A stretch of 64,000 nt of DNA from an uncultured candidatus Brocadiaceae bacterium (GCA_964612995.1 CAZTGE010000002.1:337-64336), one strand, 5' to 3'. Positions 20,769 to 56,647 are shown, counted from the first letter of the stretch. Notes: a model not told the origin generated them from the letters alone. Program-made: numbers and translations.

Positions 20769-20875
20769 GGTAGGGAGTGTCGGCGCCCAGGTCGGGGGGG
20801 CAACGTGCTGCCGGGGCATGCCCGGTTGTACGCCTGCGCCTGCGATCCGCTGAGGCTCGCACCAGCCGCAGGGCG

Positions 20876-20992
20876 ACTCAGAGCTCGCAAATGAGGGCCC
20901 CTGCCTCGCCTCCATCTGCGTCACTATGGCCCAGGCACCAAAGAGAGCGGGGCGGTTGGACGCAGGTGGAGGCGACGCAAGGCATGGAAACA
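20876..20992 (+). repeat. Copy B of the conserved intergenic element of about 115 nt. It carries a 16-bp stem with one G-U pair.
   Basis: It aligns with 2216..2330 at about 90% identity. The stem pairs cgcctccatctgcgtc with gacgcaggtggaggcg. Confidence 0.5.
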
Positions 20993-20993
20993 G

Positions 20994-21041
20994 GGGGTCA
21001 CAACATGGGACCATCACTCGATGGTCCCATGTTGTGACCCC
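20994..21041. other. Perfect 19-bp hairpin with a 10-nt loop, located between copy B and the kinase start.
   Basis: The arm ggggtcacaacatgggacc, loop atcactcgat and arm ggtcccatgttgtgacccc were read directly. Confidence 0.65.
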
Positions 21042-21122
21042 GTCATCCCTGGCTTTGAGCAGCCCTGGGCACCAGCCGTTCCCGTCGCTTGTCTGGCTGC
21101 GTGTGCGGGTCAGGATCGGACC

Positions 21123-22973
21123 ATGACCGCGGTATCTGCAGGCGGGGTGACGATCGATGCGCTCTGCGCCCTGGCGCGTCAGCAGGGGTTGCGCGATGCC
21201 GCGGCCCTGGAGCGGCTGGCCGAGGTCGCTCGTCGCGCCGGGGTCGATTCGCCGGCCACCATGCGCGCGTTCATCCTCGGCTCGGACATGCTCGGCGACG
21301 CCTTGCGTCGCGCGCTGACCCAGGCCCTGCCGCCGCGTGACGATCTGCGCTATGGCGCGATCACCATCGCCGGCCACCTCGCGGTCGGTGGCATGGGCGA
21401 TGTCTGGCTCGGGACGACGCCCGACGGCGCGCTGTGTGTGGTCAAGACCATCCGGCCGGACGTGGCGAATCCCGACTTCATCCGCCGCTTCGATCGCGAG
21501 GTGCGGCTCACCGCCCGTATCCGCAGCCCGCACGTGGTCCGTTGCATCGATTTCGGCATCGCTGGCGAGCGGTCCTATCTCGCGCTCGAGCACGTCGCCG
21601 GCGGTGATCTGCACCACCTGATCCGGCAGCACGGCCGGTTGAACGAGACCGAGGCGGTCTCGCTCGCGATCCAGATCGCCCGGGGGCTGCACGCGGCGCA
21701 CGCCTGCGATCTGGTCCATCGCGATCTCAAGCCGAAGAACGTGTTCATCACCGCCGCGGGCGTGGCCAAGCTCGGCGACTTCGGTCTCGCGCGCAGCACC
21801 TCGCAGCAGCGCACCATGTTGACGATGACCGGGACCACCGTCGGCACGCCGGCCTACATGTCGCCCGAACAGGTGCGCGGTCACGACGATCTCGATATCC
21901 GCACCGACATCTACGCGCTCGGGGTGGTGCTCTACGAATGCCTGATCGGCCGGCCGCCCTTCGCCGGTGGGCAGGCCGTGGTGTTGCGTGCGCATCTGTC
22001 GCAAGCGGTGGGCGATGTGCGCAGTCTGCGCCCCGAGCTGAGCGAGCGCGTGGCCCGCACGATTATCAAGTGCATGGCCAAGGAGCCCGGCCGCCGCTTC
22101 TCGAGTCCATCGCGGCTGGTCCACAGCCTCGAGCAGACCCTGCGCAGCTGTGCGCACGACGACGCCACGCTCGCGCCGGGAGTGGCCGCCGCGGCCGTGC
22201 CCGACGCCACGCTCTCCGGGGGCGAGGTGGTGGCCCGCGGCGCATCTCCGCCGCCGGTGGCGCCGGTCTTGCGACAGGGCTCGCCAGCCGGGATCGATCC
22301 GATGGCCCGCACCGCCACTGTGGCCGCGCCCGCTGCCGCCGGATACAGCGGCGATTGGCTGGTGCTCTGCGGCAGCGGGGCACTGGCCGGGCAGCTGATC
22401 CACTGCTTCGCGCGCTCGCGCCTGCTATTCGGCAAGAAGCGCAGCGAACCGGTCGACGTCTGCCTGCGGGTCTACCCGATCGCCGAGCACGATGCCGCCT
22501 GCCGTCGCATCAGTCGACAGCACTTCGAGCTCGCGTGGGATCCTGCGAACGGGGAGCTGCGTTGCAGCGATTGCGGCAGCGCCAACGGCACCACGCTCGA
22601 TGGTCAGGTCCTGCGCCGGTCCAGCTGTGTGCTGCAACCCGGCGGCCATCGCCTGAGCGTGCCGAGCTCGATCGCGCTCACCCTCGCGTGCCGACAGCCA
22701 GAGCACGTGATGCTCACCCGCGAAGGCAACCGCCCCTCGCTGGCCTACGTCATGGTCCTGCATCGGTTCACCATCGGCGGTCCGCTCGCCGATCTGGCCC
22801 TGCCGGCGGGCGGTGCGGGGCTGCCGATGCTCGAACTCGAACAGGTCGATGGCCGCTGGCGGTGGCGCCTCGATCGCTCCCAGCCCTGGGCACCGCTCGC
22901 GCTCGGCCAGGATTGGGAGTCCGCCGGGCTGCCCCTGCAGGCGGTCGCGGGGAGCCATGACCACTTTGTCTGA
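21123..22973 (+). CDS. Hanks-type Ser/Thr protein kinase with a C-terminal FHA domain.
   Basis: Kinase motifs are GGMGDVWLG, VVKTI, HRDLKPKNVF, DFGLAR and YMSPEQ. The C-terminal FHA-like segment is RRISRQHFELAWDPANGELRCSDCGSANGTTLDGQVL. The start is placed at the ATG at M35, downstream of the hairpin. Confidence 0.75.
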   Translation: MTAVSAGGVTIDALCALARQQGLRDAAALERLAEVARRAGVDSPATMRAFILGSDMLGDALRRALTQALPPRDDLRYGAITIAGHLAVGGMGDVWLGTTPDGALCVVKTIRPDVANPDFIRRFDREVRLTARIRSPHVVRCIDFGIAGERSYLALEHVAGGDLHHLIRQHGRLNETEAVSLAIQIARGLHAAHACDLVHRDLKPKNVFITAAGVAKLGDFGLARSTSQQRTMLTMTGTTVGTPAYMSPEQVRGHDDLDIRTDIYALGVVLYECLIGRPPFAGGQAVVLRAHLSQAVGDVRSLRPELSERVARTIIKCMAKEPGRRFSSPSRLVHSLEQTLRSCAHDDATLAPGVAAAAVPDATLSGGEVVARGASPPPVAPVLRQGSPAGIDPMARTATVAAPAAAGYSGDWLVLCGSGALAGQLIHCFARSRLLFGKKRSEPVDVCLRVYPIAEHDAACRRISRQHFELAWDPANGELRCSDCGSANGTTLDGQVLRRSSCVLQPGGHRLSVPSSIALTLACRQPEHVMLTREGNRPSLAYVMVLHRFTIGGPLADLALPAGGAGLPMLELEQVDGRWRWRLDRSQPWAPLALGQDWESAGLPLQAVAGSHDHFV

Positions 22974-32858: not shown

Positions 32859-35210
32859 TCAGCCTTCGCCCGCGCCCGGCGCCGCCGTGTCCGTGTCGTC
32901 CTGCCGCAGCAGCTTGAAGGCGAGATGGCGGCGGAAGGTGGGGATTGCGAGCGCGAGCTCGCCGCCGGGGTGTTGCCAGGAGTGCTGGGAGAGCATGGTG
33001 CCGGCCTCTGCATCCCACCATTCCACCGTCATTGCGCCGGAGCCGATGTTGGTGCCGATCACGCAGCGCCCGTCGCGCAACGGCGGGGCCGCGCCGCCGC
33101 TGCGCCCCCAGCGTTCGTCGAGCAGATAGCCGAGGATGCGTCCCGGCCGGCACCACAATTGGGCCCAGACCGGTCGGTCGGCGATGGTGAGATCGAGATG
33201 GACCGCTCGCGCCGTGCTGCTCGGATGGCTGCGCAGGTCCTCGCCGGTGAGGAAGGCCGCTAGCGCGCGATAGGGGGCCCAGCGGCCCCCCTGGTCGACC
33301 CATTCGAACCACCACAGCATCGGTCCGCCGCCGTAGCCTGAAGTCAGCGCGGCCCAGGGCCCGGAACGGTGTTCCGCGATCAGTTGCGGTTCGGGGCAGG
33401 CGTTCCAGTTGCCGCCGTACTCGGTCACCAGCACCGGTTTGCCATGACGGGCGAGTCCGGCACCGGGCTCGAGCGTGCCTTGCCACAGCAACTGCGCCAG
33501 CAGGATGCCTTCACCGCCACCGCCGCCGTGGTAGGCGTCGATGCAGACATAGTCGAGCCCCGCGTCGCCGTCGATCGCGACCAGGCTCCGGTCGGGCGTG
33601 CGGTAGTTGCCCGACCAGTGGCTGGTGACCGGATGCCCATAGGGATCGAGCGCATGCCAGCGGCGACAGGCCTGGGCATGCCAGTCGCGTAGTTCAGCGC
33701 GACCGGCACCGGTAAGATTCATCTCGCTCCACAGCTTCCAGCCGAGGATCGCCGGGTGATCGGCGTAGCGCGCGATGATGTAGCGCCGCAGCCGCTCCTG
33801 CCCGGCGAGTGCGCGTGCGTCGGTGAAGAAATCACTGGTCGAGGCGATCGGGCCGGGGGCGACAGGATCGGCATCGGGGCTCTGGCGCAGCTTGGCGTTC
33901 CAGGGATTGTCGGCCCATTCGGCGTCGGTCTTGTGCGAGCCCTGGCCGTGGTTGCGGATGACCAGATTCACCCGTACGCCCCGCCGCCAGCAGTGATCGA
34001 GCAGGGCGTCGAGGCGTTCGGCGTTGGCTTGGTTGTAGCGTCCGATGCCGTGGTAGCCCGGCCAGTCGGCGCGCCACTCCAGGGCCAGGTTCCAACTCGC
34101 CATCCATACCTCGATCGCGTTGCCGCCGTTGGCGGCGAAACGATCGATGTAGGCGCGGTAGGCGTACATGCCACGGTCGGGCGTGATGCGCGAATCGGTG
34201 CGTCTGGCCCCGCGCAGGTCCCAGGTCGAACGCAGGTTGAGGCCGATCGGCCAGTAGAAGCGGGTGGTCCCGGTGGCCTGGCCGGTGCTGAAAAACCGCG
34301 GATCGGCGGTGTCGACGCGGACGTAGTCGTCCCAGATCGCCCCGGTGACGGTGATTGGCGGCAGCGGTAGTCGCACCGTGGTCTGCTGGTTCCAGCACGC
34401 TTCGAGCCGGGCGGTGTACTGGCCGGGGCGGCGGGGGCGCCAGCGCAGCTCGAAGTGCCCGGGCGCCGAGGCCGTGGCGACCTCGGTGTCGCCACGGTCG
34501 TGGAAGCTGTGCGGTTCGCGGTAGAAGCCGGCGATGGTCTCCGTCGGCCCCCCGTCCTGGTGGGTGAACACCGCCTGCAGCGTGAACCGCTCGCGGTGAT
34601 GCGGCAGGTGGGGGGACGGCTGGGGGATACAGGTGAGCGTCCAGCGTTCGCCGGTGGCGATGGCGACGCGCCCGTCGGCGAGGTTCCGCAACTGCAGATC
34701 CGCCAGGCGGTGGTCGGCCGGAGCAGGGATCGCGCGCTTGCCGGTGACCTGCAGTTCGCTGACCGTCACCCGGGCGTCGGATCCGCTGGAGCTCCAGAAG
34801 AACAGCCCGGCGCCATGGGTCAGCGCCGCCGCGGTGGCCGACCAGCCGCCGTGATGGTCCACGGCCTGGAGCGGCTGCTCTGCGATCGGGAAGACCAGCC
34901 GGTGCTCGCCCGGGTTCAACGGCTGCGGATGCACGGACTCGAACCGCTTGCCGTGGCGGTCGACCAGATACGCGCCGGCGCCGAGGTCCGCCGGCGCTCC
35001 GGCGGGGATGCGTACGGTGGCGCGGATGCTCGCTGGCTGCTCGGGAAGCGGATCGGTGCAGGGGACCATCGTGTTCAGCGGCGCACGCAGTTGCACGCTG
35101 CGCGCCGCCTCGGCGCCGGGCAGGGCCGCGCAGAGTGCGAGCAGCAGCGCGCAGGCCGCCGGTATGCGGCGTCGGATCAAGCAGGGGCGCAGGGAGGTCG
35201 GGTCCGGCAT
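32859..35210 (-). CDS. Secreted clan GH-A (GH5-like/DUF4038-type) glycoside hydrolase-like protein, paralog 2.
   Basis: The signal peptide is IPAACALLLALCAALPGAEA. The motifs IRNHGQG, WSEMNL and VLVTEYGG are present. The gene lies 127 bp upstream of nusA on the same strand. Confidence 0.6.
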   Translation of the reverse strand: MPDPTSLRPCLIRRRIPAACALLLALCAALPGAEAARSVQLRAPLNTMVPCTDPLPEQPASIRATVRIPAGAPADLGAGAYLVDRHGKRFESVHPQPLNPGEHRLVFPIAEQPLQAVDHHGGWSATAAALTHGAGLFFWSSSGSDARVTVSELQVTGKRAIPAPADHRLADLQLRNLADGRVAIATGERWTLTCIPQPSPHLPHHRERFTLQAVFTHQDGGPTETIAGFYREPHSFHDRGDTEVATASAPGHFELRWRPRRPGQYTARLEACWNQQTTVRLPLPPITVTGAIWDDYVRVDTADPRFFSTGQATGTTRFYWPIGLNLRSTWDLRGARRTDSRITPDRGMYAYRAYIDRFAANGGNAIEVWMASWNLALEWRADWPGYHGIGRYNQANAERLDALLDHCWRRGVRVNLVIRNHGQGSHKTDAEWADNPWNAKLRQSPDADPVAPGPIASTSDFFTDARALAGQERLRRYIIARYADHPAILGWKLWSEMNLTGAGRAELRDWHAQACRRWHALDPYGHPVTSHWSGNYRTPDRSLVAIDGDAGLDYVCIDAYHGGGGGEGILLAQLLWQGTLEPGAGLARHGKPVLVTEYGGNWNACPEPQLIAEHRSGPWAALTSGYGGGPMLWWFEWVDQGGRWAPYRALAAFLTGEDLRSHPSSTARAVHLDLTIADRPVWAQLWCRPGRILGYLLDERWGRSGGAAPPLRDGRCVIGTNIGSGAMTVEWWDAEAGTMLSQHSWQHPGGELALAIPTFRRHLAFKLLRQDDTDTAAPGAGEG

Positions 35211-39392: not shown

Positions 39393-40235
39393 ATGCGCTG
39401 GATGTCCATTTTGTTGCTCACGCCCCTGCTGCTGTTGGCGGCCTTCGCCCCAGTGACGGCTGAAGAGGGCTCCGGCGGGGCCGAGGCCGCTGCTGGCGCA
39501 GCGGCCGAGGAGGACGCCGCGACGGGTCCCCAGAACATCACGGCCGACTCGGAGGCCGAAGAGGAGGCCTTGACCGCCGCTGAGCGCAAAGAGAAGCTCA
39601 ACGAAGGCAATGCTTTCATTCAGCAGATCAAGAACGGCGGCGTGCCGATGGGCTTCCTCATCGCATTGGCGGTGGTCGGCGTGGTCATCATCATCGAGCG
39701 CCTCGCCCGGCTCAATCGCGGCAACATCGCCCCGCCGGAACTGGCTGAGCGGGCTGACGAGATGTGGTCCGCCGGCGACACCGATGGCGTGAAGCAGCTG
39801 GCCGAGAGCGACAACAGCGCGCTGGGTCGGGTGATCGCCTTCCTCGCCGAGAACAAGGACGCCGACTACATCGCGCTCAACGAAGGCGCCGGCGAGGTCG
39901 CCGCGCGTGAAATCCAGAAGCAACAGCAGATGAACTACTGGCTGGCCGTGGTCGCCACCATCTCGCCGCTGCTGGGTCTGCTGGGTACGGTGCTCGGTAT
40001 GATCTCGGCCTTCAAGACGGTGGCTGTGGCCGGCGATATCGGCGACACCTCGATGGTCGCCGAGGGCATCTACATGGCGCTCTCGACCACCGCTGCCGGT
40101 CTGATCATCGCCATCCCCACCCTCGGCTTCTTCCATTATCTCAAAGGCCGCGCCAGCCAGCTCGCACTCGAGCTCGAGGACACCAGCAACCGGCTGATCC
40201 TCAAGTGGTTCGGCAAGGCCAAGGGGGCCGCCTGA
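39393..40235 (+). CDS. exbB: MotA/TolQ/ExbB proton-channel protein with a cleavable signal peptide and an Ala/Glu-rich periplasmic N-terminal extension.
   Basis: The ATG at M109 of ORF 39069.. has GGGAGAAAC upstream. The signal peptide is MRWMSILLLTPLLLLAAFAPVTA. The MotA_ExbB core motif is YWLAVVATISPLLGLLGTVLGMISAF. Confidence 0.8.
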   Translation: MRWMSILLLTPLLLLAAFAPVTAEEGSGGAEAAAGAAAEEDAATGPQNITADSEAEEEALTAAERKEKLNEGNAFIQQIKNGGVPMGFLIALAVVGVVIIIERLARLNRGNIAPPELAERADEMWSAGDTDGVKQLAESDNSALGRVIAFLAENKDADYIALNEGAGEVAAREIQKQQQMNYWLAVVATISPLLGLLGTVLGMISAFKTVAVAGDIGDTSMVAEGIYMALSTTAAGLIIAIPTLGFFHYLKGRASQLALELEDTSNRLILKWFGKAKGAA

Positions 40236-40236
40236 G

Positions 40237-40713
40237 ATGCGGAGCAACCGCGAACCGGACCAGACGCCATTGATCATGATGGAACCGATGATCGACGTCG
40301 TGTTCCTGCTGCTGATCTTCTTCCTCGTCTCGGCCACCATCCGCAAGAAGCACAGCGAACTGCCGCTGGAGCTGCCGCACCTGACCCACGCCGAGACCGA
40401 GAAGGATCCGGACAATACGGTGGTGGTGAGCATCATGCCCACCAGCGGTGGCGGTGGCGGTGGCGGGGTCCACTACCGCTGCACCACCGTGGGCGAGGCG
40501 CTGCGCTCCACCGGCGGCGCCCGTGAGGACGTGACGCTGCAGGAACTGATCACCAAGCTACGGGTCGCGGCCAGGCAGAAACCCGGTCGCAAGGTGCGTA
40601 TCGACGCCGACAGCGCGGTGCCCTATCACATAGTCAGCCAGGTGATCGATCACTGCGAGCTCTATCGTCTGACAACCATCGGTCTGCGGACCCACGACAA
40701 CTTCAGCAGCTGA
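40237..40713 (+). CDS. exbD: ExbD/TolR biopolymer transport protein, copy 1.
   Basis: The TM segment is IMMEPMIDVVFLLLIFFLVSATI. A periplasmic domain follows. The start is 2 nt after the exbB stop. Confidence 0.8.
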   Translation: MRSNREPDQTPLIMMEPMIDVVFLLLIFFLVSATIRKKHSELPLELPHLTHAETEKDPDNTVVVSIMPTSGGGGGGGVHYRCTTVGEALRSTGGAREDVTLQELITKLRVAARQKPGRKVRIDADSAVPYHIVSQVIDHCELYRLTTIGLRTHDNFSS

Positions 40714-40750
40714 ATCGGGGCCGGGCCCGGCCCGGCGCGGAGACAACGCC

Positions 40751-41221
40751 ATGCGCAGCAAGCACAAGGAAGACGAGTCGCCCGGCATCATGATGGAGCC
40801 GATGATCGACTGCGTCTTCCTGCTCCTGATCTTCTTTCTGGTCGCCGCGACCATCCGCAAGAAGCACAAGGAGATCCCCGTCGACCTGCCGACCTTCGGC
40901 AATACTGCCGAGGCACCGGTCGGGGAAGCGGACAAGCCACCGCTGTACCTGCGGGTCAGCGGTATCGAGGCCGACGACACCGGTCGGGTCACCGACGTAG
41001 GCCTGTTCCTGCGCGAGGGCGTGGCCGTCGGTGAGCTCGGACCGGGGCGTCAGGTCGGTTATCACGATCTGGCCGGCGAGATCGGTCCGCAGCGCCCGGT
41101 ATTCATAGAGGTCTTCGGCGATGTCCGGTACGGTCACGTGATGAAGATCATCGGTCTGCTCCAACTCCATGACCACAAGGTGCTCGGGCTGCGGGTGGCC
41201 AACCCCCACAACCCGGCCTGA
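40751..41221 (+). CDS. exbD: ExbD/TolR biopolymer transport protein, copy 2.
   Basis: The TM segment is IMMEPMIDCVFLLLIFFLVAATI and the C-terminal region contains FIEVFGDVRYGHVMKIIGLL. Confidence 0.8.
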   Translation: MRSKHKEDESPGIMMEPMIDCVFLLLIFFLVAATIRKKHKEIPVDLPTFGNTAEAPVGEADKPPLYLRVSGIEADDTGRVTDVGLFLREGVAVGELGPGRQVGYHDLAGEIGPQRPVFIEVFGDVRYGHVMKIIGLLQLHDHKVLGLRVANPHNPA

Positions 41222-41241
41222 ATGGAACGAAGGGACGCACC

Positions 41242-42534
41242 ATGGTAGCACACTCCAAGAACTACAGCGGCCTGCTGATGCCCCTGGCCGTGGTCGCGGT
41301 CAGCGCCCTGGTCATCTGGGGTTTCGGCGGCGGCGATGGCTCCGGCTTCGCCATCTCGGCCGGCGACATCGATGACATCGTCAAGCGTATCCGCGACACC
41401 ACCCGCGAACGGTGGCTCGAGAAGACGCGCGACCTGATCAGCATGACGCGGCGGATCGACCAGATCCGCGACAAACGCTTCGCCGATATCCGTGAGGGGG
41501 TGCAGGGCGAGAGCTACCTCGAGCGCTTCATCCAGCTCGCGCGTGAGAAGCACGCGCCGATCGACGCCGGACTGTACGAGCGGATCGACGAACCCGGCGT
41601 GCCGCTGTCGGTGGTCTTCGAGGCGACCAAGGCGGCCGAGCTGCAGCTGACCAACAGCTATCGCGATATCCGCGGCGCGCTCAACGCCATCCGGCTCGAG
41701 GTGCCGGCGATCGACGCCATCGGCTGGGTCAAGGTGGTCCAGCCACGACGGATCACGCTCGCGGCCGACGGGATCGATAACGACTCCGTCCGCAGTCAGG
41801 ATGCGCTCGAGACCTTCAAGCACGAGGTCAACCGCGGCGCGTCCGAGATCGACGCCATGCTGCAGCACGCTGAGAAGATCGTCGAGAAGGCCGAGGAGGC
41901 CGACGAGGGCGGCGGCGGCGGCGCCGGCGTTCCAATGATCAGTGATACCGGTTTCGGCAGTACGCGCGGCGCGACCCTGCGTCCGGACGAGCTCTTCGAA
42001 TCGCGTAGCACATCCGATGGCGGCTTCGACGCCCGCCCTGGCCGGGTGGTGGCCGACGACGGCCGGCGCCAGGACTGGATGTACGTCGACAAGTGGTACG
42101 TCATGGGCCCGTTCGAGAACCGCTTCCGCTCCAACCTCGATGCCTCCTTCCTGCCCGAGACGGTGGTCGATCTCGACAACGTCACCCTGGGCAAGGACGA
42201 CCGCGAGATCGGCTGGAAATACTGGGACTGCAAGGCCCAGCGGATCGAGCCGAGCTGGGCCCCGCGTGGCTGCATCTACTACGGCTGGACCGAAGTCTAC
42301 ATGGAGGACGCCGCCAAGTACTGGGTCGCGCTGGGCAGCGACGACTACGGCAAGGTGTGGATCAACGGCAAGGAGGTCTGGAAGTCGGACACGGTGCCCA
42401 AGCCCTACCGCGCCGACGAGCATGTGGCCGAATTCGAGTTCAAGCAGGGCGTCAACGAAATCCTGTTCCGCTGCGAGAACAACGGTGGCACCATGGGCTG
42501 GTCGATGGTGATCTGCACCATGGCCAACCAGTAG
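41242..42534 (+). CDS. Bitopic inner-membrane protein (paralog A): an N-terminal TM anchor, a helical periplasmic region, a Gly-rich linker and a C-terminal jelly-roll domain of about 150 aa (GH2-N/PA14-like).
   Basis: The TM segment is SGLLMPLAVVAVSALVIWGF. The C-terminal domain is DWMYVDKWYVMGPFEN...DDYGKVWINGKEVWKSD...ILFRCENNGGTMGWSM. The RBS context is GAAGGGAC. The start lies 21 nt after exbD2. Confidence 0.6.
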   Translation: MVAHSKNYSGLLMPLAVVAVSALVIWGFGGGDGSGFAISAGDIDDIVKRIRDTTRERWLEKTRDLISMTRRIDQIRDKRFADIREGVQGESYLERFIQLAREKHAPIDAGLYERIDEPGVPLSVVFEATKAAELQLTNSYRDIRGALNAIRLEVPAIDAIGWVKVVQPRRITLAADGIDNDSVRSQDALETFKHEVNRGASEIDAMLQHAEKIVEKAEEADEGGGGGAGVPMISDTGFGSTRGATLRPDELFESRSTSDGGFDARPGRVVADDGRRQDWMYVDKWYVMGPFENRFRSNLDASFLPETVVDLDNVTLGKDDREIGWKYWDCKAQRIEPSWAPRGCIYYGWTEVYMEDAAKYWVALGSDDYGKVWINGKEVWKSDTVPKPYRADEHVAEFEFKQGVNEILFRCENNGGTMGWSMVICTMANQ

Positions 42535-42629
42535 CGCGACGTTGCTGGCCGGCGCGATCGCGCGACACCCGGATCAGGCGCGGCCGAACGCCTTCATCAC
42601 GGCCTGAATCTCCGTACGAAGGGACGTCC

Positions 42630-43925
42630 ATGGCAACCAGCTCGAACAACCACAGTGGGCTGTTGATGCCCCTGGCGGTTGTCACGGTCAGCGCCTTGGT
42701 CATCTGGGGCTTCAGCGGCGGCGACAGCTCCGGGTTCGCCATCTCGCCGGGCGACATCGACGAGGTCGTCAAACGTATCCGCGACACCAAGCGCGAACAG
42801 TGGCTCGCGCAGACCCACGATCTGATCGGCATGACGCGGCGGATCGACCAGGTCCGGGACAAGCGCTTCGCCGAGATCCGTGAGGGGGCACAGGGCGAGA
42901 GCTACCTGGAGCATTTCATCCAGCTCGCGCGCGAGAAGCATGCCCCCGTCGAGGCCGGGCTGTTCGAGCGCATCGACGATCCCGACGTGCCGCTGTCGGT
43001 GGTGTTCGAGGCGGCCAAGGCGGCAGAGCTGCATCTGACCAACAGCTACCGCGACATCCGCGGGGCGCTCACCGCCATCCGGCTCGAGGTGCCAGCGATC
43101 GATGCCATCCGCTGGATCAAGGTGGTCCGGCCACGGCGGATCACACTCGTGGCTGGCGACATCGACAGCGACTCGATCCGTGGGCAGGATGCGCTCGAGG
43201 CCTTCAAGCACGAAGTCAACCGCGGCGCGTCCGAAATCGACGCCATGCTGCAACACGCAGAGAAGATCGTCGAGAAGGCCGAGGCGGTCGACCGGCACGG
43301 TGGCGGTGGCGACCATGTCCCGCTGATCAGCGAAGCCGGTTTCGACAGCACGCGCGGCCCGACCCTGCGCCCGGACGAGACCACCAGTGCACATCGCGGC
43401 ACCGCCGACGGTGGCTTCGACGCCCGCCCCGGCCGGGTGGTGGCTGACGACGGCCGGCGCCAAGACTGGATGTACGTCGACAAGTGGTACGTCATGGGCC
43501 CGTTCGAGAACCGCTTCCGCTCCAACCTCGATGCCTCCTTCCTGCCCGAGACGGTGGTCGATCTCGACAACGTCACCCTGGGCAAGGACGACCGCGAGAT
43601 CGGCTGGAAATACTGGGACTGCAAGGCCCAGCGGATCGAGCCGAGCTGGGCCCCGCGTGGCTGCATCTACTACGGCTGGACCGAAGTCTACATGGAGGAC
43701 GCCGCCAAGTACTGGGTCGCGCTGGGCAGCGACGACTACGGCAAGGTGTGGATCAACGGCAAGGAGGTCTGGAAGTCCGATACGGTGCCCAAGCCTTACC
43801 GCGCCGACGAGTACGTGGGCGAATTCGAATTCAGACAGGGCGCCAACGAGGTCCTGTTCCGCTGTGAGAACAACGGCGGTACCATGGGGTGGTCGATGGT
43901 AATCTGCACCATGGCCAGCCAGTAA
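42630..43925 (+). CDS. Bitopic inner-membrane protein (paralog B), about 88% identical to paralog A.
   Basis: The ATG at 42630 has the same GAAGGGAC RBS context. The architecture is the same as paralog A. A 314-nt tract is identical to paralog A. Confidence 0.6.
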   Translation: MATSSNNHSGLLMPLAVVTVSALVIWGFSGGDSSGFAISPGDIDEVVKRIRDTKREQWLAQTHDLIGMTRRIDQVRDKRFAEIREGAQGESYLEHFIQLAREKHAPVEAGLFERIDDPDVPLSVVFEAAKAAELHLTNSYRDIRGALTAIRLEVPAIDAIRWIKVVRPRRITLVAGDIDSDSIRGQDALEAFKHEVNRGASEIDAMLQHAEKIVEKAEAVDRHGGGGDHVPLISEAGFDSTRGPTLRPDETTSAHRGTADGGFDARPGRVVADDGRRQDWMYVDKWYVMGPFENRFRSNLDASFLPETVVDLDNVTLGKDDREIGWKYWDCKAQRIEPSWAPRGCIYYGWTEVYMEDAAKYWVALGSDDYGKVWINGKEVWKSDTVPKPYRADEYVGEFEFRQGANEVLFRCENNGGTMGWSMVICTMASQ

Positions 43926-44023
43926 TCCGTATCGCGTCCGGTCCGCGCATGGGCACCGTTCACTCCGCCCCGTGTTGCGCGATCGTTCGCGCGTTTTCAA
44001 CGACCACGGTTCCGGGAGGACCC

Positions 44024-46444
44024 ATGCTTCGTCATCATCTCGCCATCGGCATCCTCTGTATCGCCGCCAGCCTGCCCGGCGCGGACGGGCCACTCGCCCA
44101 CACCGCAGCCCTGCGAGTATGGCAGGATCTGCCCTCGGAGTTCCTGATCGAACTCAACCGCACCCTCGACGACGAACAACGACTGGCGTGGTACGTCGAC
44201 CCGGCGAGCGAGACCGCGGCCTACCCCGGCGCCACCCTGCCCGATGAGACCCGCAGCCTTGCAGATCACATAGAGCGCTACTGCGAGCAGGCCGGCCTGG
44301 AGTGGAAGCACGACGGCCGGGCACTGTGGCTCTATCGCCCGATGGCAGAAGCCGAGCAGAACGCACTCATCGAGCGGTTCCGCACCGGCGAGGAGGACGC
44401 ACGCGTCGCCGCTCGCAACGCGCTGTTGGCGCATCCCACGCCGGCGGGGATCGAAGCGCTGTTGCTCGCGCTCGGCGGCGAGGATGCCACCGCGGCACGG
44501 CTCGCGCACGAGGGGATCTACTCGCTGCTCGGCGCGAGCAACGAGTGGGTCGGCAGCGACATCCGCCTCGCCTTCAAGCTGTTCTCGGATCCCAACCGGG
44601 TGCTCAACACCCTCGCCGGTTTCTCGCAGACCGATACCGACCTGCCCGCGCCCTGGGCGATGTTCGAGATCGTCGGCCGCGACCCGACGGTGCGCACCGC
44701 GATCGAGGCCGCCGTCGCCGCGCGCGATGGCGATCAGGCTGGGCGCGACCTCGGCCTGGCGGTGGTCGCCGCTGCGGCGCGGGTCGCATCGGGCGCCGAT
44801 CTGCTCGCGTGGTGGCAGCAGCACCCCGGTGGCGACTGGCAGTGGCGCTACGTGCGTGGGCGAGCGCTCAACGCTGCGCGGTGGGCCGGCTATATCGATG
44901 CCGCCGAAGTCGTTGATCCGGCAGCGGTCGCCAAGGCCTTCGATAACGCGATGGGTGCGGTGCCGGCGATCGACGATCAGCTCTCCGAGCGCAAGCTCGA
45001 CAAGCAGACCCGCAGAGACCTCGAAGATCGGGTCGATGCGCTCTTCAGCGCGATCAAGGCCACCGCCGCTCCGGCGGTGGCGCGCAAGCTCGCCGCGGTG
45101 GCGGCCAACGCGGAGTTGCACCAGCAGATCCGTCAGGCCGCGCTCGCGGCCCTGCACGGTGTCGACGACACGGCGACGATGGAGCGGCTGGTCGCGCTGC
45201 GCAGCACGGTCGAGGACCGCCAGCTGGCCAAGGCGATCGATCGCACCCTCGCCGCCTCGGACAGCCCGGTGGCGATCGCTGATCTGAGCCAGCGTGCCCT
45301 GGCACAGATCCAGGCCACCAACACGGCCTGGCGTGCGAAGAGCGATGCGATCGCCGAGAAGCGCAAGACGGCGGAATCCTTGGGCGAGGCCGGGGAGCTG
45401 GCACCGCCGCAGCGCAAGCAGCTCAAGCAGCTGGGCAAGGACATCGATCATCTCAACAACGACATGCAGAAGCTGCTCAAGGAGGCGCGCGAGACGGTGC
45501 AGGAGCTCGGCGAGCTGCGCGGCACGGCCGCGGTCACCGCGCTGGGTACGGTGCTGGTCGACGCGCAGATGCATCAGGAACTGCGCAAGAGCGCCGCCGA
45601 GGCGCTGATCGTCAAGCGCGATCCGGCGATGGTCGAGCCGCTGATCGCCGCCTTCACCGACGATGAATGGGCCGCGGTGCGCAAGGTCGCGGCCGAGGCG
45701 CTCGGCCGCTGTCGCCAGCCGGAGGCGATCGCCGCACTGCGTTCGGGCCTGACCGGGGCCAAGAGCCCGCTGACGCGTCAGGCCGCCGCCCGTGGGCTGG
45801 CCATGTCGCGCCACCCGGAGGCCTACGCCCTGATCAAGCAGCGCCTCTCCACGGCCGGGACCTCGCGCGAACGGATCATGCTGATCCTGTCGCTGGCGGC
45901 CACGCGCGATCCGGCCGCACTGGAGACCCTGACCGGTATCCTCCAGGACGCCACCGCGGCCCTCGACGACCGCCTGGGTGCCGCGCGCGCGCTGGCGCTG
46001 ATTCCGACCCAGGGCGCCCGCGACGCCCTGACCGGGATTATGGCCGGCGATCAGCCGATTGAGCTCAAACGCATGACCCTGGACAGCCTCAAGCCGATGA
46101 GCAAGGCCGACGTGCCGGTGTTCGCTCCGATCCTGCTCGAGGTCCTGGCCGCACGGCCGCAGGGCGAGCTGCTGGTCATGGCGGTCGAGAATCTGCGCCG
46201 CTGCATGTTCGGCCTGCCTGGTGGCGATCCGATCAAGGCCGAGATCGAGGCCGCGATCCTCGACCTGATCGCCGGATCGGACAACAACAACGCGCGCAAG
46301 GCCGCGCTCAATGTGTTCAAATACAGCGACGATCCCGCGGGTGTGGTCGCGCGTCTGGAGACGGTGGCGCAGCGGGAACGCAATCCGGTGATGCGCTCCT
46401 TCCTCAACCGGGCGGTCGCCCAGCTCAAGGCGACGGGGCAGTGA
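44024..46444 (+). CDS. Secreted HEAT/PBS-lyase-repeat protein (806 aa).
   Basis: The ATG at 44024 has GGGAGGA upstream. The signal peptide is MLRHHLAIGILCIAASLPGADG. Repeated helical-repeat units of the form PEAIAALRSGLTGAKSPLTRQAAARGLAM are present. The stop is adjacent to the convergent hisS. Confidence 0.6.
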   Translation: MLRHHLAIGILCIAASLPGADGPLAHTAALRVWQDLPSEFLIELNRTLDDEQRLAWYVDPASETAAYPGATLPDETRSLADHIERYCEQAGLEWKHDGRALWLYRPMAEAEQNALIERFRTGEEDARVAARNALLAHPTPAGIEALLLALGGEDATAARLAHEGIYSLLGASNEWVGSDIRLAFKLFSDPNRVLNTLAGFSQTDTDLPAPWAMFEIVGRDPTVRTAIEAAVAARDGDQAGRDLGLAVVAAAARVASGADLLAWWQQHPGGDWQWRYVRGRALNAARWAGYIDAAEVVDPAAVAKAFDNAMGAVPAIDDQLSERKLDKQTRRDLEDRVDALFSAIKATAAPAVARKLAAVAANAELHQQIRQAALAALHGVDDTATMERLVALRSTVEDRQLAKAIDRTLAASDSPVAIADLSQRALAQIQATNTAWRAKSDAIAEKRKTAESLGEAGELAPPQRKQLKQLGKDIDHLNNDMQKLLKEARETVQELGELRGTAAVTALGTVLVDAQMHQELRKSAAEALIVKRDPAMVEPLIAAFTDDEWAAVRKVAAEALGRCRQPEAIAALRSGLTGAKSPLTRQAAARGLAMSRHPEAYALIKQRLSTAGTSRERIMLILSLAATRDPAALETLTGILQDATAALDDRLGAARALALIPTQGARDALTGIMAGDQPIELKRMTLDSLKPMSKADVPVFAPILLEVLAARPQGELLVMAVENLRRCMFGLPGGDPIKAEIEAAILDLIAGSDNNNARKAALNVFKYSDDPAGVVARLETVAQRERNPVMRSFLNRAVAQLKATGQ

Positions 46445-53989: not shown

Positions 53990-56647
53990 ATGGAGCGACA
54001 GGTGCTCGATCAGATCCCCGAGTCCATCGGTCGATATCGGATCCTCGACGTGCTCGGGCAGGGCGGGATGGGGCGGGTCTACCGTGCCCAGGACGAATCG
54101 CTCGGCCGCACGGTCGCGCTCAAGGTGCTCCTGCCGGTGCCGGGAGCCCCGGCGGATTTCGCCAAGCGCTTCCTGCGCGAGGCGCGGGCGGCGGCGAGCA
54201 TCAATCATCCCAACGTCATCACCTGCTACGATGTCGGCGACGCCGACGGCACGCTGTACATGGCGCTGGAGCTGGTCACCGGCGGCGATGCCGCGCGCCT
54301 GATGGCGCACCGCGGTGGACGCCTGAGCGAGCGCGAGGCGCTGCTGGTGGTGCGCGGCGCGGCCGCCGGGCTGCTGGCGATCGAGCAGGCGGGCCTGCTG
54401 CATCGCGACATCAAGCCGGCGAACATCTTCCTCACAGACGCAGGTGAAGCAAAGCTTGCCGATCTCGGCCTGGTGCGTTCGCACCTCGATCAGGACCAGT
54501 TGACCCAGGTCGGCGCGCCGATGGGCACGCCCGCCTACATGTCGCCCGAACAGGCCCGCGGCGAGGCCGATCTGGATATCCGTAGCGACATCTTCTCGCT
54601 CGGCTGTTCGCTCTACGCCATGCTCAGCGGCGCGAGCCCCTTTCTCGCCGACAGCCCGGTCGCCACCCTCAGCCGGGTGCTCAGCGATGAGATGCCCGAT
54701 ATCACCCAGGCCGGTCCCGACCTGAGTCCGGAGACCTGCCGCTTGCTCGCCGGAACCCTCGCGAAGGACCGCAGCCGGCGGATCGCCGGAGCTGGCGCGT
54801 TGGTCTCGCAGGCGCAGAGCGCCCTGACCGAATTGCGCGGCGCCCAGCGCGCGCGCACCACCACCGCGCGTCGTGCGAACGATCAGACCCCGGCCACCGG
54901 TCACGCCGCGCGGCAGGCCACGCCGGCGCCGGATACCGATCGCCGCCGGGCGGTCGGCACCCGTAGCAGCAGCCGGCGGCGGGAGACCACGCGCTCGCAG
55001 GCGGATCTCCGTGCGTTGGCCAAGCGCGTCCACGTCGCCCCGGACGGTCTGCGCGCTTGGATCAATCTCGCGCCGCAGGTCAGCTTTCCCCGGGTCCTGC
55101 TCGATAAGGTGCTCGACACCGCCGGCGTCTGTCACGGGCTGCAGCACGCTGCGCTGCTCCAGGCCACCCGCGGCGTCAACAGCGTGCGGCGGCTGGTCAT
55201 CGCGCTCGGCGATCCACCGTTGCCGGACCAGGAGGGCACCGATGTCTGCGGCCAGCGGATCCCGCCGGTGCAGAACGATGTGGTCATCGTGGTCGCGGCC
55301 GACTACATGGAGGCGCACGCGATCTTCCGCCCTGGAACCCTGTGCGACCAGATGCAGGTCAAGCTGGCCCTGTTGCAGGCCGGCGTGCGCTACGGCATCG
55401 ACCGCACCGGCCTGCTCCGGTTGTGGGAGGGCCCGCCCGATCAGAGCGGACGACGCGGCATCGCCCGGGGTACGGCGATGATCCCCGGCGAGCCCGCCGG
55501 GTTCCGGCTCGCGGCCAACGTGAGCGAGCAGAGTCTCGGCGCGGAAACCGTCGAGCACATGAGCCAGGTACGCCAGGGCCAGATGCTGGCCCGCTGGAGC
55601 GAGGAGGTCCGCGGGCGCGCGGGAATGGACGTCCACGGCCGCGAGATCATCCCGCCGCGCCTGGCGAGCCCCGATATCTCGCGGATGGTCGGCGAGGGCT
55701 GTCGCGTGGAACGCAATCGCGATGGGGTCCAGATGCTGGTGGCCGAACGCGCTGGCTATGTGCAGCAGCAGGTCGACGGACGCATCCGGGTGATCTCGGC
55801 GGTAGAGGTGCCGGGTGATTGCGGTCCCGACAGCCCCGCGATCGATACCGACGATGTGGTCCTGGTTCGCGGAAACGTGTTGCCCGGCGCGCGGATCAAC
55901 AGTTCGAACGATGTGGTCATCATGGGCGATCTGCAGGACGCGGCGATCGAGGCCGGCGGGTCCTTGCAGGTGCAGGGCAACATCGGCGCTGGTGATCAAG
56001 CAGTGCTGGCCGGCGACGGCGTGGCGGTCGGCGGCGACGTGGCCCGACGCGTGGTCACCGGATCGCTGCGCGTCGACGGCGCGGTCGAGAACTGCGAGAT
56101 CGTCGCCACCGGTGACATCGAGGTCCATCGGGTGGTCGGCGGGTCGCTGATCGCGGGCGGCAACATCACGGTACAGTACGCCGGCGACGATCGGGGCGCG
56201 ACGACAGAGATGTGGGCCGGACACCTGCCGGAATCGGACGATCGGGCGGAGGTGATCCGGGTCAACGAACGGCGGATCCACACCGAATACCGCCAGGCGA
56301 TGGAACGCCTGCACTCGGCCGATGCCGAGGTGTATCAGAAACGCAAGCGTATGGAGTTGATCGAACGCTCCGATTACCGCTCCGAACACTTTGCGCGGGA
56401 GCGCAAGGAGAAGCTCGACCACGCCGATGCGCAGCGGCGGCAGCACGAGGCCGAGGCCGACGAAGTACGCCAGCGCCTTGCGGCCCAGCGTCAGGCGTTG
56501 GCCGACCTGCGCCGCCGCGGCGAGAACGCCGAGGCGGTGATCGAGGCGCGGGTGATCGCCTATCGCGGCGTGGTCGCCTGCATCGGTGATGCCGAACCGC
56601 TCGCGTTGCGGATGGATCGCGCACCGTTCAAGATGCGCCTGCAATAG
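53990..56647 (+). CDS. Hanks-type Ser/Thr kinase fused to a FapA/DUF342-like beta-helix domain with a C-terminal coiled coil.
   Basis: Kinase motifs are GQGGMGRVY, HRDIKPANIF, DLGLVR and YMSPEQ. The C-terminal half has repetitive VxGxVxAG beta-helix units followed by a coiled coil (ERRIHTEYRQAMERL...). Confidence 0.7.
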   Translation: MERQVLDQIPESIGRYRILDVLGQGGMGRVYRAQDESLGRTVALKVLLPVPGAPADFAKRFLREARAAASINHPNVITCYDVGDADGTLYMALELVTGGDAARLMAHRGGRLSEREALLVVRGAAAGLLAIEQAGLLHRDIKPANIFLTDAGEAKLADLGLVRSHLDQDQLTQVGAPMGTPAYMSPEQARGEADLDIRSDIFSLGCSLYAMLSGASPFLADSPVATLSRVLSDEMPDITQAGPDLSPETCRLLAGTLAKDRSRRIAGAGALVSQAQSALTELRGAQRARTTTARRANDQTPATGHAARQATPAPDTDRRRAVGTRSSSRRRETTRSQADLRALAKRVHVAPDGLRAWINLAPQVSFPRVLLDKVLDTAGVCHGLQHAALLQATRGVNSVRRLVIALGDPPLPDQEGTDVCGQRIPPVQNDVVIVVAADYMEAHAIFRPGTLCDQMQVKLALLQAGVRYGIDRTGLLRLWEGPPDQSGRRGIARGTAMIPGEPAGFRLAANVSEQSLGAETVEHMSQVRQGQMLARWSEEVRGRAGMDVHGREIIPPRLASPDISRMVGEGCRVERNRDGVQMLVAERAGYVQQQVDGRIRVISAVEVPGDCGPDSPAIDTDDVVLVRGNVLPGARINSSNDVVIMGDLQDAAIEAGGSLQVQGNIGAGDQAVLAGDGVAVGGDVARRVVTGSLRVDGAVENCEIVATGDIEVHRVVGGSLIAGGNITVQYAGDDRGATTEMWAGHLPESDDRAEVIRVNERRIHTEYRQAMERLHSADAEVYQKRKRMELIERSDYRSEHFARERKEKLDHADAQRRQHEAEADEVRQRLAAQRQALADLRRRGENAEAVIEARVIAYRGVVACIGDAEPLALRMDRAPFKMRLQ

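What the first reader, a model, noticed from the sequence alone, without database searches (positions are those of the whole stretch)
39393..46444. ExbB-ExbD-ExbD motor operon followed by two jelly-roll paralogs and a secreted HEAT-repeat protein
Six plus-strand genes are packed with gaps of 2 to 99 nt. The first is a signal-peptide-bearing ExbB/TolQ, followed by two ExbD/TolR genes. Next come two tandem 430-aa bitopic proteins. Each has an N-terminal TM anchor, a helical periplasmic region, a Gly-rich linker and a C-terminal jelly-roll domain. The motifs DDYGKVWINGKEV and FRCENNGGTMG recall GH2-N/PA14/galactose-binding folds. The last gene encodes a secreted 806-aa HEAT/PBS-lyase-repeat protein. 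No TonB C-terminal domain, TolA, TolB, Pal or TonB-dependent receptor is encoded in or beside the operon. The motor may therefore energise the two jelly-roll anchor proteins in place of TonB, which would make this a candidate uncharacterised proton-motive-force-driven envelope machine.
Basis: partly seen in the sequence, partly recalled or inferred. Interest (0 to 1): 0.8.

Follow-up and report, generated by a model that had tools for sequence, protein, structure and literature searches.

The report
ExbBD motor with lectin-headed TonB-like partner
A planctomycete operon pairs a proton-driven ExbB/ExbD membrane motor with an unannotated, membrane-anchored protein family that sits where TonB normally would but ends in a sugar-binding-type beta-sandwich; this points to a widespread, undescribed kind of energy-coupled envelope machine in Planctomycetes and Verrucomicrobia.

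Summary
Six co-directional genes at 39393-46444 encode ExbB, two ExbD, two 85%-identical 430-aa bitopic paralogs ("X") and an 806-aa HEAT-repeat protein. No TonB, TolA, TolB, Pal or TonB-dependent receptor domain was detected in any large ORF of the 64-kb window.

- **Family size:** X has no Pfam or NCBIfam model, yet about 4,000 cluster representatives exist. All named ones are Planctomycetota, Verrucomicrobiota or PVC MAGs.
- **Synteny:** in every readable locus X directly follows exbB-exbD, including 54 of 54 metagenome loci with enough upstream DNA.
- **TM motif:** most relatives, including 700-900-aa long forms with a TolA-like coiled coil, carry the TonB/TolA-type S-x3-H motif. The window's own clade has lost that His.
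- **HEAT protein:** it is a co-conserved partner in the short-form clade.

Best reading (confidence 0.6): a non-canonical proton-motive-force transducer, parallel to the vWA-headed transducers described in 2025 but with a lectin-like head. Its target and function are unknown. A glycan link is suggested but weak. I rate it a new variant of a known kind.

The parts
39393..40235 (+). ExbB/TolQ-family proton-channel subunit, 280 aa. It has an N-terminal signal-peptide-like segment and an acidic periplasmic extension.
   Evidence: Pfam MotA_ExbB 4.4e-24. Sub-threshold NCBIfam hits to TolQ (69.8 bits) and ExbB (43 bits). PDB TolQ 2e-9 and ExbB 6e-8, with the GLLGTV and STTAAGL Thr motifs aligned. 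Four hydrophobic segments.
40237..40713 (+). ExbD/TolR-family subunit 1, 158 aa. One TM helix with the conserved Asp (MIDVVF).
   Evidence: Pfam ExbD 1.1e-21; TM segment at residues 13-31.
40751..41221 (+). ExbD/TolR-family subunit 2, 156 aa, heterologous to subunit 1. One TM helix with the conserved Asp (MIDCVF).
   Evidence: Pfam ExbD 1.9e-12; TM segment at residues 17-35. A second ExbD gene is also present in L001, L007-L010, L013, L014 and L098.
41242..42534 (+). Paralog A of family X, 430 aa. TM helix at aa 10-28 (41269-41325), helical domain at aa 40-222 (41359-41907), Gly-rich linker, beta-sandwich head at aa 263-430 (42028-42531).
42630..43925 (+). Paralog B of family X, 431 aa, 85% identical to paralog A.
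   Evidence: BLASTP; family HMM hit at 2e-194.
42073..42386 (+). 314-nt tract of paralog A that is base-for-base identical to 43464-43777 in paralog B (aa 278-381 of the sandwich). The genes are 89% identical overall.
   Evidence: Longest-common-substring and sliding-identity computation. This is either gene conversion or assembly collapse.
44024..46444 (+). Secreted HEAT-repeat protein, 806 aa. It has a conserved N-terminal region (aa ~23-200), a coiled-coil hairpin (aa ~415-497) and HEAT repeats (aa ~500-804).
   Evidence: Pfam HEAT_2 1.9e-26 and HEAT_PBS 2e-5. AF2 pLDDT is 76-94 over aa ~410-600 and 54-85 over aa ~600-800, and below 50 for aa 1-83 and 164-300. Foldseek returns generic HEAT/alphaRep hits. 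Colinear with the HEAT protein that follows X in L021, and with the split N-terminal gene in L003.

Best explanation
The six genes form one module, a non-canonical proton-motive-force transducer specific to the PVC superphylum.

**Proposed mechanism.**
- ExbB and the two ExbD proteins build a TolQR/ExbBD-type 5:2 proton-driven motor in the inner membrane.
- Family X takes the place that TonB or TolA occupies in canonical systems. X is anchored next to the motor by its N-terminal TM helix.
- X reaches into the periplasm through a helical stalk and a flexible Gly-rich tether.
- X ends in a GH2-N/PA14/CBM35-type beta-sandwich head. This head, rather than a TonB-box-binding domain, grips the target.
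- The secreted HEAT-repeat protein is a co-evolving periplasmic partner, acting as scaffold, adaptor or target. This parallels the TPR proteins that accompany Tol, Bacteroidota Ton and vWA-transducer clusters.
- Motor movement would pull on or reposition whatever the head holds at the outer part of the envelope. That is most plausibly a glycan or a glycan-bearing or outer-membrane component.

**Shown here.**
- Gene order and domain identities.
- The motor's key residues.
- The fold of the head.
- Near-obligate exbB-exbD-X synteny.
- The TonB-type S-x3-H helix in most relatives.
- Co-conservation of the HEAT protein in the short-form clade.

**Inferred, not shown.**
- Physical coupling of X to the motor.
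- Force transmission.
- The ligand and the physiological role.

The window's two copies belong to a derived short-form clade that has lost the His. Their mode of coupling is the least secure step.
For: **Synteny.**
- ExbB-ExbD(1-2)-X(1-2) is contiguous and co-directional in all 16 loci from the first two searches (L001-L016, which include a few duplicate contigs). These share only 31-94% X identity.
- The same order holds in 5 of 5 annotated wider-family loci.
- It also holds in 54 of 54 metagenome loci with at least 1.5 kb upstream. Gene ends often overlap.

**TM helix.** In 80 of 87 long forms, and in most short forms outside the window clade, the TM helix reads WWxxSxxxH...FTPLR. Ser and His are invariant in 15 aligned long forms. 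This motif binds TonB, TolA and the vWA transducers to their motors (PMC12204202).

**Architecture.** X has the three-part TMH, periplasm-spanning region and globular head layout. Long forms insert an Ala/Gln/Glu-rich coiled coil like E. coli TolA domain II.

**Motor.** The proton-binding Asp in both ExbDs and the Thr motifs in ExbB are intact.

**Head.** It is a carbohydrate-module-type sandwich with invariant GSDD, W and EN residues.

**HEAT partner.** An orthologous HEAT protein follows X in the window, in L001/L002/L012 (by Pfam), and in L003, L005-L011, L021 and L098.

**No canonical partner nearby.** No TonB, TolA or TonB-dependent receptor gene is found in the window or the annotated loci.
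Against: - The window clade (P0001-P0026) lacks the His inside the TM helix. ParB has H8 at the cytoplasmic edge and parA has Y8, so the canonical motor-binding determinant is missing in exactly these two proteins.
- No complex prediction or experiment links X to ExbB.
- The N-terminal resemblance to TonB/TolA is at motif level only, with no Pfam TonB hit.
- The head's similarity to sugar-binding modules is at fold level only. Sequence profiles find nothing significant, and GH2-N-type domains are often structural rather than lectins.
- The link to carbohydrate genes is partial. Four annotated long-form loci sit among lyases, sulfatases or sugar ABC transporters. Only about 15-20 of 211 sampled neighbour ORFs are carbohydrate-related, in CAZyme-rich phyla.
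- The window's own flanks are housekeeping genes.
- A canonical TonB could be encoded elsewhere in the genome.
Confidence: 0.6

Rival explanations
1. This is a divergent Tol-Pal-like envelope-tethering or constriction system rather than an uptake machine. X would be a TolA analogue that links the inner membrane to the outer membrane or cell wall. HEAT would play the CpoB-like solenoid role. The large PQQ beta-propeller proteins seen in some loci would play a TolB-like role.
For: - The best sub-threshold NCBIfam hits of the motor genes are TolQ and TolR rather than ExbB and ExbD.
- PDB TolQ scores slightly better than ExbB.
- Long forms have a TolA-II-like coiled coil.
- The window flanks are housekeeping genes, not nutrient loci.
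- PQQ_2 beta-propeller giants adjoin the module in L001, L003, L015 and L021. Those in L003, L015 and L021 carry an X-type sandwich.
Against: - No Pal, OmpA-like or TolB family is present in any locus.
- PQQ neighbours occur in only a minority of loci and are absent from the window.
- The scores cannot separate TolQ from ExbB, since all are far below the equivalog cut-offs.
- Several long-form loci lie among polysaccharide-degradation and sugar-transport genes.
Confidence: 0.15
2. X is not mechanically coupled to the motor. It would be a membrane-anchored periplasmic lectin, chaperone or substrate-capture protein that is merely co-transcribed with ExbBD. In the window clade the ancestral coupling would have been lost along with the His.
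For: - The His is absent from the TM helix in the window clade.
- The head resembles passive carbohydrate-binding modules.
- There is no direct evidence of an interaction.
Against: - Synteny with exbB-exbD is retained throughout the His-less clade across 43-94% identity. This is hard to explain without functional dependence.
- The cytoplasmic N-terminus is only 5-18 residues long, so X has no signalling module of its own.
- TM helix features are conserved within the clade.
Confidence: 0.12
3. This is an ordinary Ton system whose tonB and receptors are encoded elsewhere. X and HEAT would be accessory or unrelated genes.
For: - Only 64 kb of the genome is visible.
- Some Planctomycetes do encode TonB and a few receptors (PMC3422733).
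Against: - X occupies the tonB position in all loci examined.
- X itself carries the TonB-type helix in most relatives.
- Most planctomycete genomes examined in 2012 lacked TonB and receptors.
Confidence: 0.08

Closest known systems
vWA-headed force transducers next to TPR-tolQ-tolR-tolR in PVC and other phyla (Origin and Evolution of Bacterial Periplasmic Force Transducers, Mol Biol Evol 2025, PMC12204202)
   Same: - Both are bitopic proteins encoded right after a tolQ/exbB-like gene and, in PVC, a pair of heterologous tolR/exbD-like genes.
- Both have the TMH, linker and globular non-TonB head layout.
- Both have an S-H-L-S-type helix (in most X relatives).
- Both have an accompanying solenoid-repeat protein.
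- The function of both is unknown.
   Different: - The head is a GH2-N/PA14/CBM35-type beta-sandwich, not a vWA Rossmann fold.
- X has a structured ~180-aa helical domain instead of a disordered Pro-rich linker.
- The solenoid partner is HEAT and lies downstream, rather than TPR upstream.
- The window clade lacks the His.
- The paper does not mention a sandwich-headed family.
TonB (Ton system)
   Same: - X is encoded with ExbB-ExbD.
- It has an N-in single TM anchor.
- The S-x3-H motif is present in most family members.
- A periplasm-spanning region leads to a globular head.
   Different: - There is no TonB_C domain.
- There is no Pro-rich spacer.
- No TonB-dependent receptor is nearby.
- The window copies lack the His.
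TolA (Tol-Pal system)
   Same: - The gene order is TolQ/TolR-like genes followed by a bitopic protein.
- Long forms have an Ala/Glu/Gln-rich helical domain II.
- A solenoid-repeat partner is present (CpoB versus HEAT).
   Different: - There is no TolA C-terminal fold.
- There are no tolB or pal genes.
- The head is a carbohydrate-module-type sandwich.
PA14 lectin domains, GH2 N-terminal 'sugar-binding' domains and CBM35/36
   Same: - The strand motif GSDDxGKxWxNG resembles the PA14 'sDDg..lwvdG' signature.
   Different: - There is no significant sequence-level match.
- Ca2+ and sugar binding are untested.
- The context is an inner-membrane-anchored protein rather than an enzyme or adhesin.

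Membership tests
MotA/TolQ/ExbB - ExbD/TolR motor | MotA_ExbB-family and ExbD-family domains encoded side by side | tested here: met
   Pfam MotA_ExbB 4e-24; ExbD 1e-21 and 2e-12.
MotA/TolQ/ExbB - ExbD/TolR motor | Conserved Asp in the ExbD/TolR TM helix and Thr residues in the last two ExbB/TolQ TM helices | tested here: met
   MIDVVF and MIDCVF in the ExbD TM segments. GLLGTV and STTAAGL align to TolQ.
MotA/TolQ/ExbB - ExbD/TolR motor | Assignment to the ExbB/ExbD or the TolQ/TolR equivalog | tested here: not met
   All NCBIfam equivalog scores are far below cut-off. For example, TolQ scores 69.8 against a cut-off of 221, and ExbB scores 43 against 206.
TonB | C-terminal TonB_C domain that binds TonB boxes | tested here: not met
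   [not shown]
TonB | TM helix with the S-x3-H (SHLS) motor-binding motif | tested here: not met
   It is absent from parA, parB and their clade. It is present in 80 of 87 long-form relatives and in P0027.
TonB | Genetic linkage to exbB-exbD | tested here: met
TonB | Partner TonB-dependent receptors in the genome | not testable with these tools
   Only 64 kb is visible. No receptor was found in the 36 window ORFs scanned.
TolA / Tol-Pal | TolA C-terminal domain and neighbouring tolB-pal genes | tested here: not met
   No such Pfam families appear in the window or the annotated loci.
vWA force transducers (PMC12204202) | vWA-fold C-terminal domain | tested here: not met
   The head is a beta-sandwich.
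vWA force transducers (PMC12204202) | Position directly after tolQ-like and paired tolR-like genes, with a solenoid-repeat partner | tested here: met
   The window order is exbB-exbD-exbD-X-X-HEAT.
PA14 / GH2_N / CBM35 sugar-binding modules | Beta-sandwich fold of the galactose-binding-like type | tested here: met
   [not shown]
PA14 / GH2_N / CBM35 sugar-binding modules | Sequence-level family membership | tested here: not met
   No Pfam hit at E<=1. The family profile against PDB sequences gives a best relevant E of 0.2-0.5.
PA14 / GH2_N / CBM35 sugar-binding modules | Ca2+ or carbohydrate binding | not testable with these tools
   The invariant DD lies in the strand motif that corresponds to the PA14 signature. 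This correspondence is from my recollection of the PA14 DcisD motif and is a lead only.
HEAT-repeat proteins | Tandem HEAT/PBS-lyase-type repeats | tested here: met
   HEAT_2 1.9e-26 in five stretches. The modelled helical repeats at aa 500-804 have pLDDT mostly 54-92.
Zorya-type MotAB-like defence systems | ZorA/ZorB-like proteins | tested here: not met
   PADLOC gives no hit for the five motor and X proteins.

The most novel reading that the evidence does not exclude
Family X would be a third, PVC-wide class of proton-motive-force transducers, after TonB/TolA and the vWA type. Its lectin-like head would capture or haul glycans, or a glycan-handling outer-membrane partner. It would then supply the energy coupling for the TonB- and SusCD-independent uptake of whole polysaccharides into the enlarged periplasm of Planctomycetes.
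Probability: 0.15. Interest if true: 0.9.

Novelty: new variant of a known kind. Interest (0 to 1): 0.68.

Why it matters
- **Missing energiser.** Planctomycetes mostly lack TonB and TonB-dependent receptors (PMC3422733), yet they take up macromolecules by an unknown, energy-requiring route (PMC5520146).
- **A candidate with numbers behind it.** An unannotated family with thousands of members is always welded to an ExbBD-type motor. It carries the TonB-type anchor helix and a carbohydrate-module-type head. That makes it a concrete, testable candidate for the missing energiser.
- **Broader principle.** More generally, 5:2 motors would be modular engines that can be fitted with different periplasmic heads.
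- **Annotation.** The result defines a family that deserves a Pfam or NCBIfam model. At present every member is labelled 'hypothetical protein'.

Tried and rejected
- **afdb50 Foldseek search.** The library was not available.
- **HEAT homolog search.** The word-index search returned only 2 close relatives. The HEAT model therefore rests on 3 sequences, and its N-terminal 300 residues are unreliable. An STN-like reading of the conserved N-terminal region could not be tested.
- **Long-form profile search.** The word-index search with the long-form alignment was swamped by low-complexity coiled coil and gave 9 hits, all unnamed.
- **Head profile against PDB sequences.** Nothing was significant. 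Weak PQQ-blade-like and PA14 matches were the only hits.
- **Defence-system reading.** Rejected, because PADLOC was empty for the five motor and X proteins.
- **Anti-sigma (RsgI-like) sensor reading.** Rejected, because the cytoplasmic N-terminus is only 5-18 residues long.
- **Promoter and terminator scan.** Uninformative in this 68% GC genome.
- **Neighbour-gene enrichment for carbohydrate functions.** Suggestive but not decisive.
- **Number of ExbD genes versus the His.** No correlation was seen.


Full report
**Observation**

The window has about 68% G+C. Its paralog A is 100% identical to a protein of a Planctomycetota MAG.

Start-codon and ORF analysis gives six co-directional genes:

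| Gene | Coordinates | Length |
|---|---|---|
| exbB | 39393-40235 | 280 aa |
| exbD1 | 40237-40713 | 158 aa |
| exbD2 | 40751-41221 | 156 aa |
| parA | 41242-42534 | 430 aa |
| parB | 42630-43925 | 431 aa |
| HEAT | 44024-46444 | 806 aa |

- The intergenic gaps are 1, 37, 20, 95 and 98 nt.
- Pfam confirms MotA_ExbB, ExbD twice and HEAT_2. The paralogs match no Pfam or NCBIfam model.
- ExbB keeps the two Thr-bearing motifs that align to TolQ and ExbB structures.
- Both ExbDs keep the TM Asp.
- The paralogs are 85% identical.
- They contain a 314-nt tract of perfect DNA identity: 42073-42386 equals 43464-43777.
- Pfam scans of 30 further large ORFs across the window found housekeeping and regulatory genes: IF-2, NusA, TsaD, HisRS, aspartokinase, DegP-like proteases, FtsK and kinases.
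- None of the ORFs scanned has a TonB_C, TolA, TolB, Pal, Plug or TonB_dep_Rec domain.

**Structure of the paralogs**

An AF2 model built on 24 homologues (pLDDT 77) shows four parts:
- a TM helix at residues 9-28;
- a confident helical domain at residues 40-222;
- a disordered Gly-rich linker;
- a beta-sandwich at residues 265-430.

- CBM35/36/6 modules.

Foldseek agrees, with CBM35, MpPA14, GH2, GH3 and GH31 accessory domains. No TonB or TolA C-terminal domain appears in either list. The helical part hits only generic bundles.

At sequence level the head matches nothing significantly. Membership in those families is therefore at fold level only.

**Conserved context of the close family**

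The word-index search found 28 homologues, all from Planctomycetota MAGs or metagenomes. Annotated contigs for five of them and ten GTDB loci were examined. All show MotA_ExbB, then one or two ExbD genes, then one or two X genes, on one strand. The outer flanks are unrelated to each other.

A HEAT_2 protein follows X in most loci.
- It is colinear with the window's HEAT protein over its whole length in L021.
- In L003 and L005 its conserved N-terminal region is a separate gene.

Large PQQ_2 beta-propeller proteins adjoin the module in four lineages. Those in L003, L015 and L021 contain an internal X-type sandwich. The window has no such copy.

**The family is far larger than it first looked**

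A full HMMER profile search against 1.84 billion cluster representatives gave 4067 hits at E<=1e-3 and 515 at E<=1e-30.
- Besides ~430-aa short forms there are many 700-900-aa long forms. Their C-terminal ~165 residues match at 200-250 bits.
- None of ten tested has a Pfam hit.
- Five of six tested have no NCBIfam hit. The sixth gave only a far sub-threshold SMC match to its coiled coil.
- All named members are 'hypothetical protein' from Planctomycetota or Verrucomicrobiota.
- Long forms insert an Ala/Gln/Glu-rich coiled coil between the TM helix and the conserved helical-plus-sandwich module.

The TM helix of these relatives reads WWxxSxxxH...FTPLR.
- S-x3-H occurs in 80 of 87 long forms and in most short forms outside the window clade.
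- Ser and His are invariant in 15 aligned long forms.
- This is the motif through which TonB, TolA and the recently described vWA transducers bind their motors (PMC12204202).

The window clade is the exception.
- Only P0012 and P0027 keep a His in the helix. P0027 has a full S-H-I-S spacing.
- ParB has H8 at the cytoplasmic edge of the helix, and parA has Y8 there.

**Synteny of the wider family**

- Five annotated loci (L017-L021) all have MotA_ExbB-ExbD immediately before X, often with overlapping gene ends.
- A metagenome scan found more than 530 relatives. Of the 80 loci kept, 54 had enough upstream DNA. All 54 carry exbB and exbD directly upstream on the same strand.

**Hints about function**

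Four annotated long-form loci sit among carbohydrate genes:
- LacI regulators;
- sulfatases;
- an RGI lyase;
- pectate lyases;
- a CBM9 protein;
- an ABC sugar importer.

A broader Pfam census of 211 neighbour ORFs is mixed.
- Hits included GH16 x2, CBM9 x2, CBM_4_9 x2, and single GH2, GH5, GH115, fucosidase, pectic lyase and AXE1 hits.
- GFO_IDH_MocA x3 and FAD_oxidored x4 also appeared.
- Many housekeeping genes were present as well.
- No TonB-related family was shared by two or more neighbours.

The carbohydrate link is a lead, not a finding.

**HEAT protein**

The model is confident for a coiled-coil hairpin (aa ~415-497) and moderately to well supported for the HEAT repeats (aa ~500-804, pLDDT 54-92). 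It is unreliable for the conserved N-terminal region. Fold hits are generic HEAT/alphaRep.

**Interpretation**

The module is best read as a non-canonical proton-motive-force transducer. An ExbBD/TolQR-type motor is paired with a TonB/TolA-analogous anchor protein whose head is a lectin-type sandwich, plus a periplasmic HEAT partner.

The closest published precedent is the vWA-headed transducer family next to TPR-tolQ-tolR-tolR in PVC bacteria (PMC12204202). That paper does not mention a sandwich-headed family. Other literature searches found none either.

X fails the TonB and TolA membership tests on the C-terminal domain. In the window clade it also fails on the His. It should therefore not be filed as TonB or TolA.

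Three main rivals remain open and are scored accordingly:
- a Tol-like tether;
- an uncoupled periplasmic lectin;
- an ordinary Ton system with tonB encoded elsewhere.

**Verdict**

- Novelty is 'new variant of a known kind'.
- Interest is about 0.68.
- The main weaknesses are the missing His in these particular copies, the unknown target, and the absence of any interaction evidence.

Noticed in passing
window 42073-42386 and 43464-43777: There is a 314-nt perfectly identical tract inside two paralogs that are otherwise about 89% identical at DNA level. It covers the N-terminal two thirds of the sandwich. The cause is either recent gene conversion or a MAG assembly collapse.
   Followed up: partly
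L015:4342-8538, L021:11290-15177, L003:5930-7234: Large secreted PQQ_2 beta-propeller proteins lie next to the module in several lineages. They contain an internal copy of the X-type sandwich (hhalign 96%; HMM i-E from 1e-10 to 8e-5). They may be partners or targets.
   Followed up: partly
L009 and L010 (same MAG, GEM2.Bin36): One MAG carries two complete exbB-exbD-exbD-X-HEAT modules on different contigs. The whole module duplicates, not only X.
   Followed up: no
L019:4440-10421: Two consecutive ExbB-ExbD pairs precede a 401-aa unknown secreted protein and a long-form X. The locus lies inside a pectin-lyase and CBM9 neighbourhood.
   Followed up: no
window 32859-35210 (-): A 783-aa signal-peptide-bearing ORF has strong coding GC3 bias but no Pfam hit. 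It lies 4 kb upstream of the operon on the opposite strand.
   Followed up: no
window 53990-56647 (+): A Ser/Thr protein kinase is fused to FapA_N and FapA (flagellar assembly protein A) domains. This is an unusual combination.
   Followed up: no
window 18540-22403 (-): A 1287-aa ORF has coding-type composition and no Pfam family.
   Followed up: no
window 44090-44620 (HEAT residues ~23-200): The HEAT protein has a conserved N-terminal region, and in L003 and L005 it is a separate gene. Its motif S-l-x-D-x-l-x-x-y-x-x-x-x-G-l-e-x-x-x-x-G-R-x-v-W-x-y is reminiscent of STN-type domains. Pfam gives no hit and the model there is of low confidence.
   Followed up: partly
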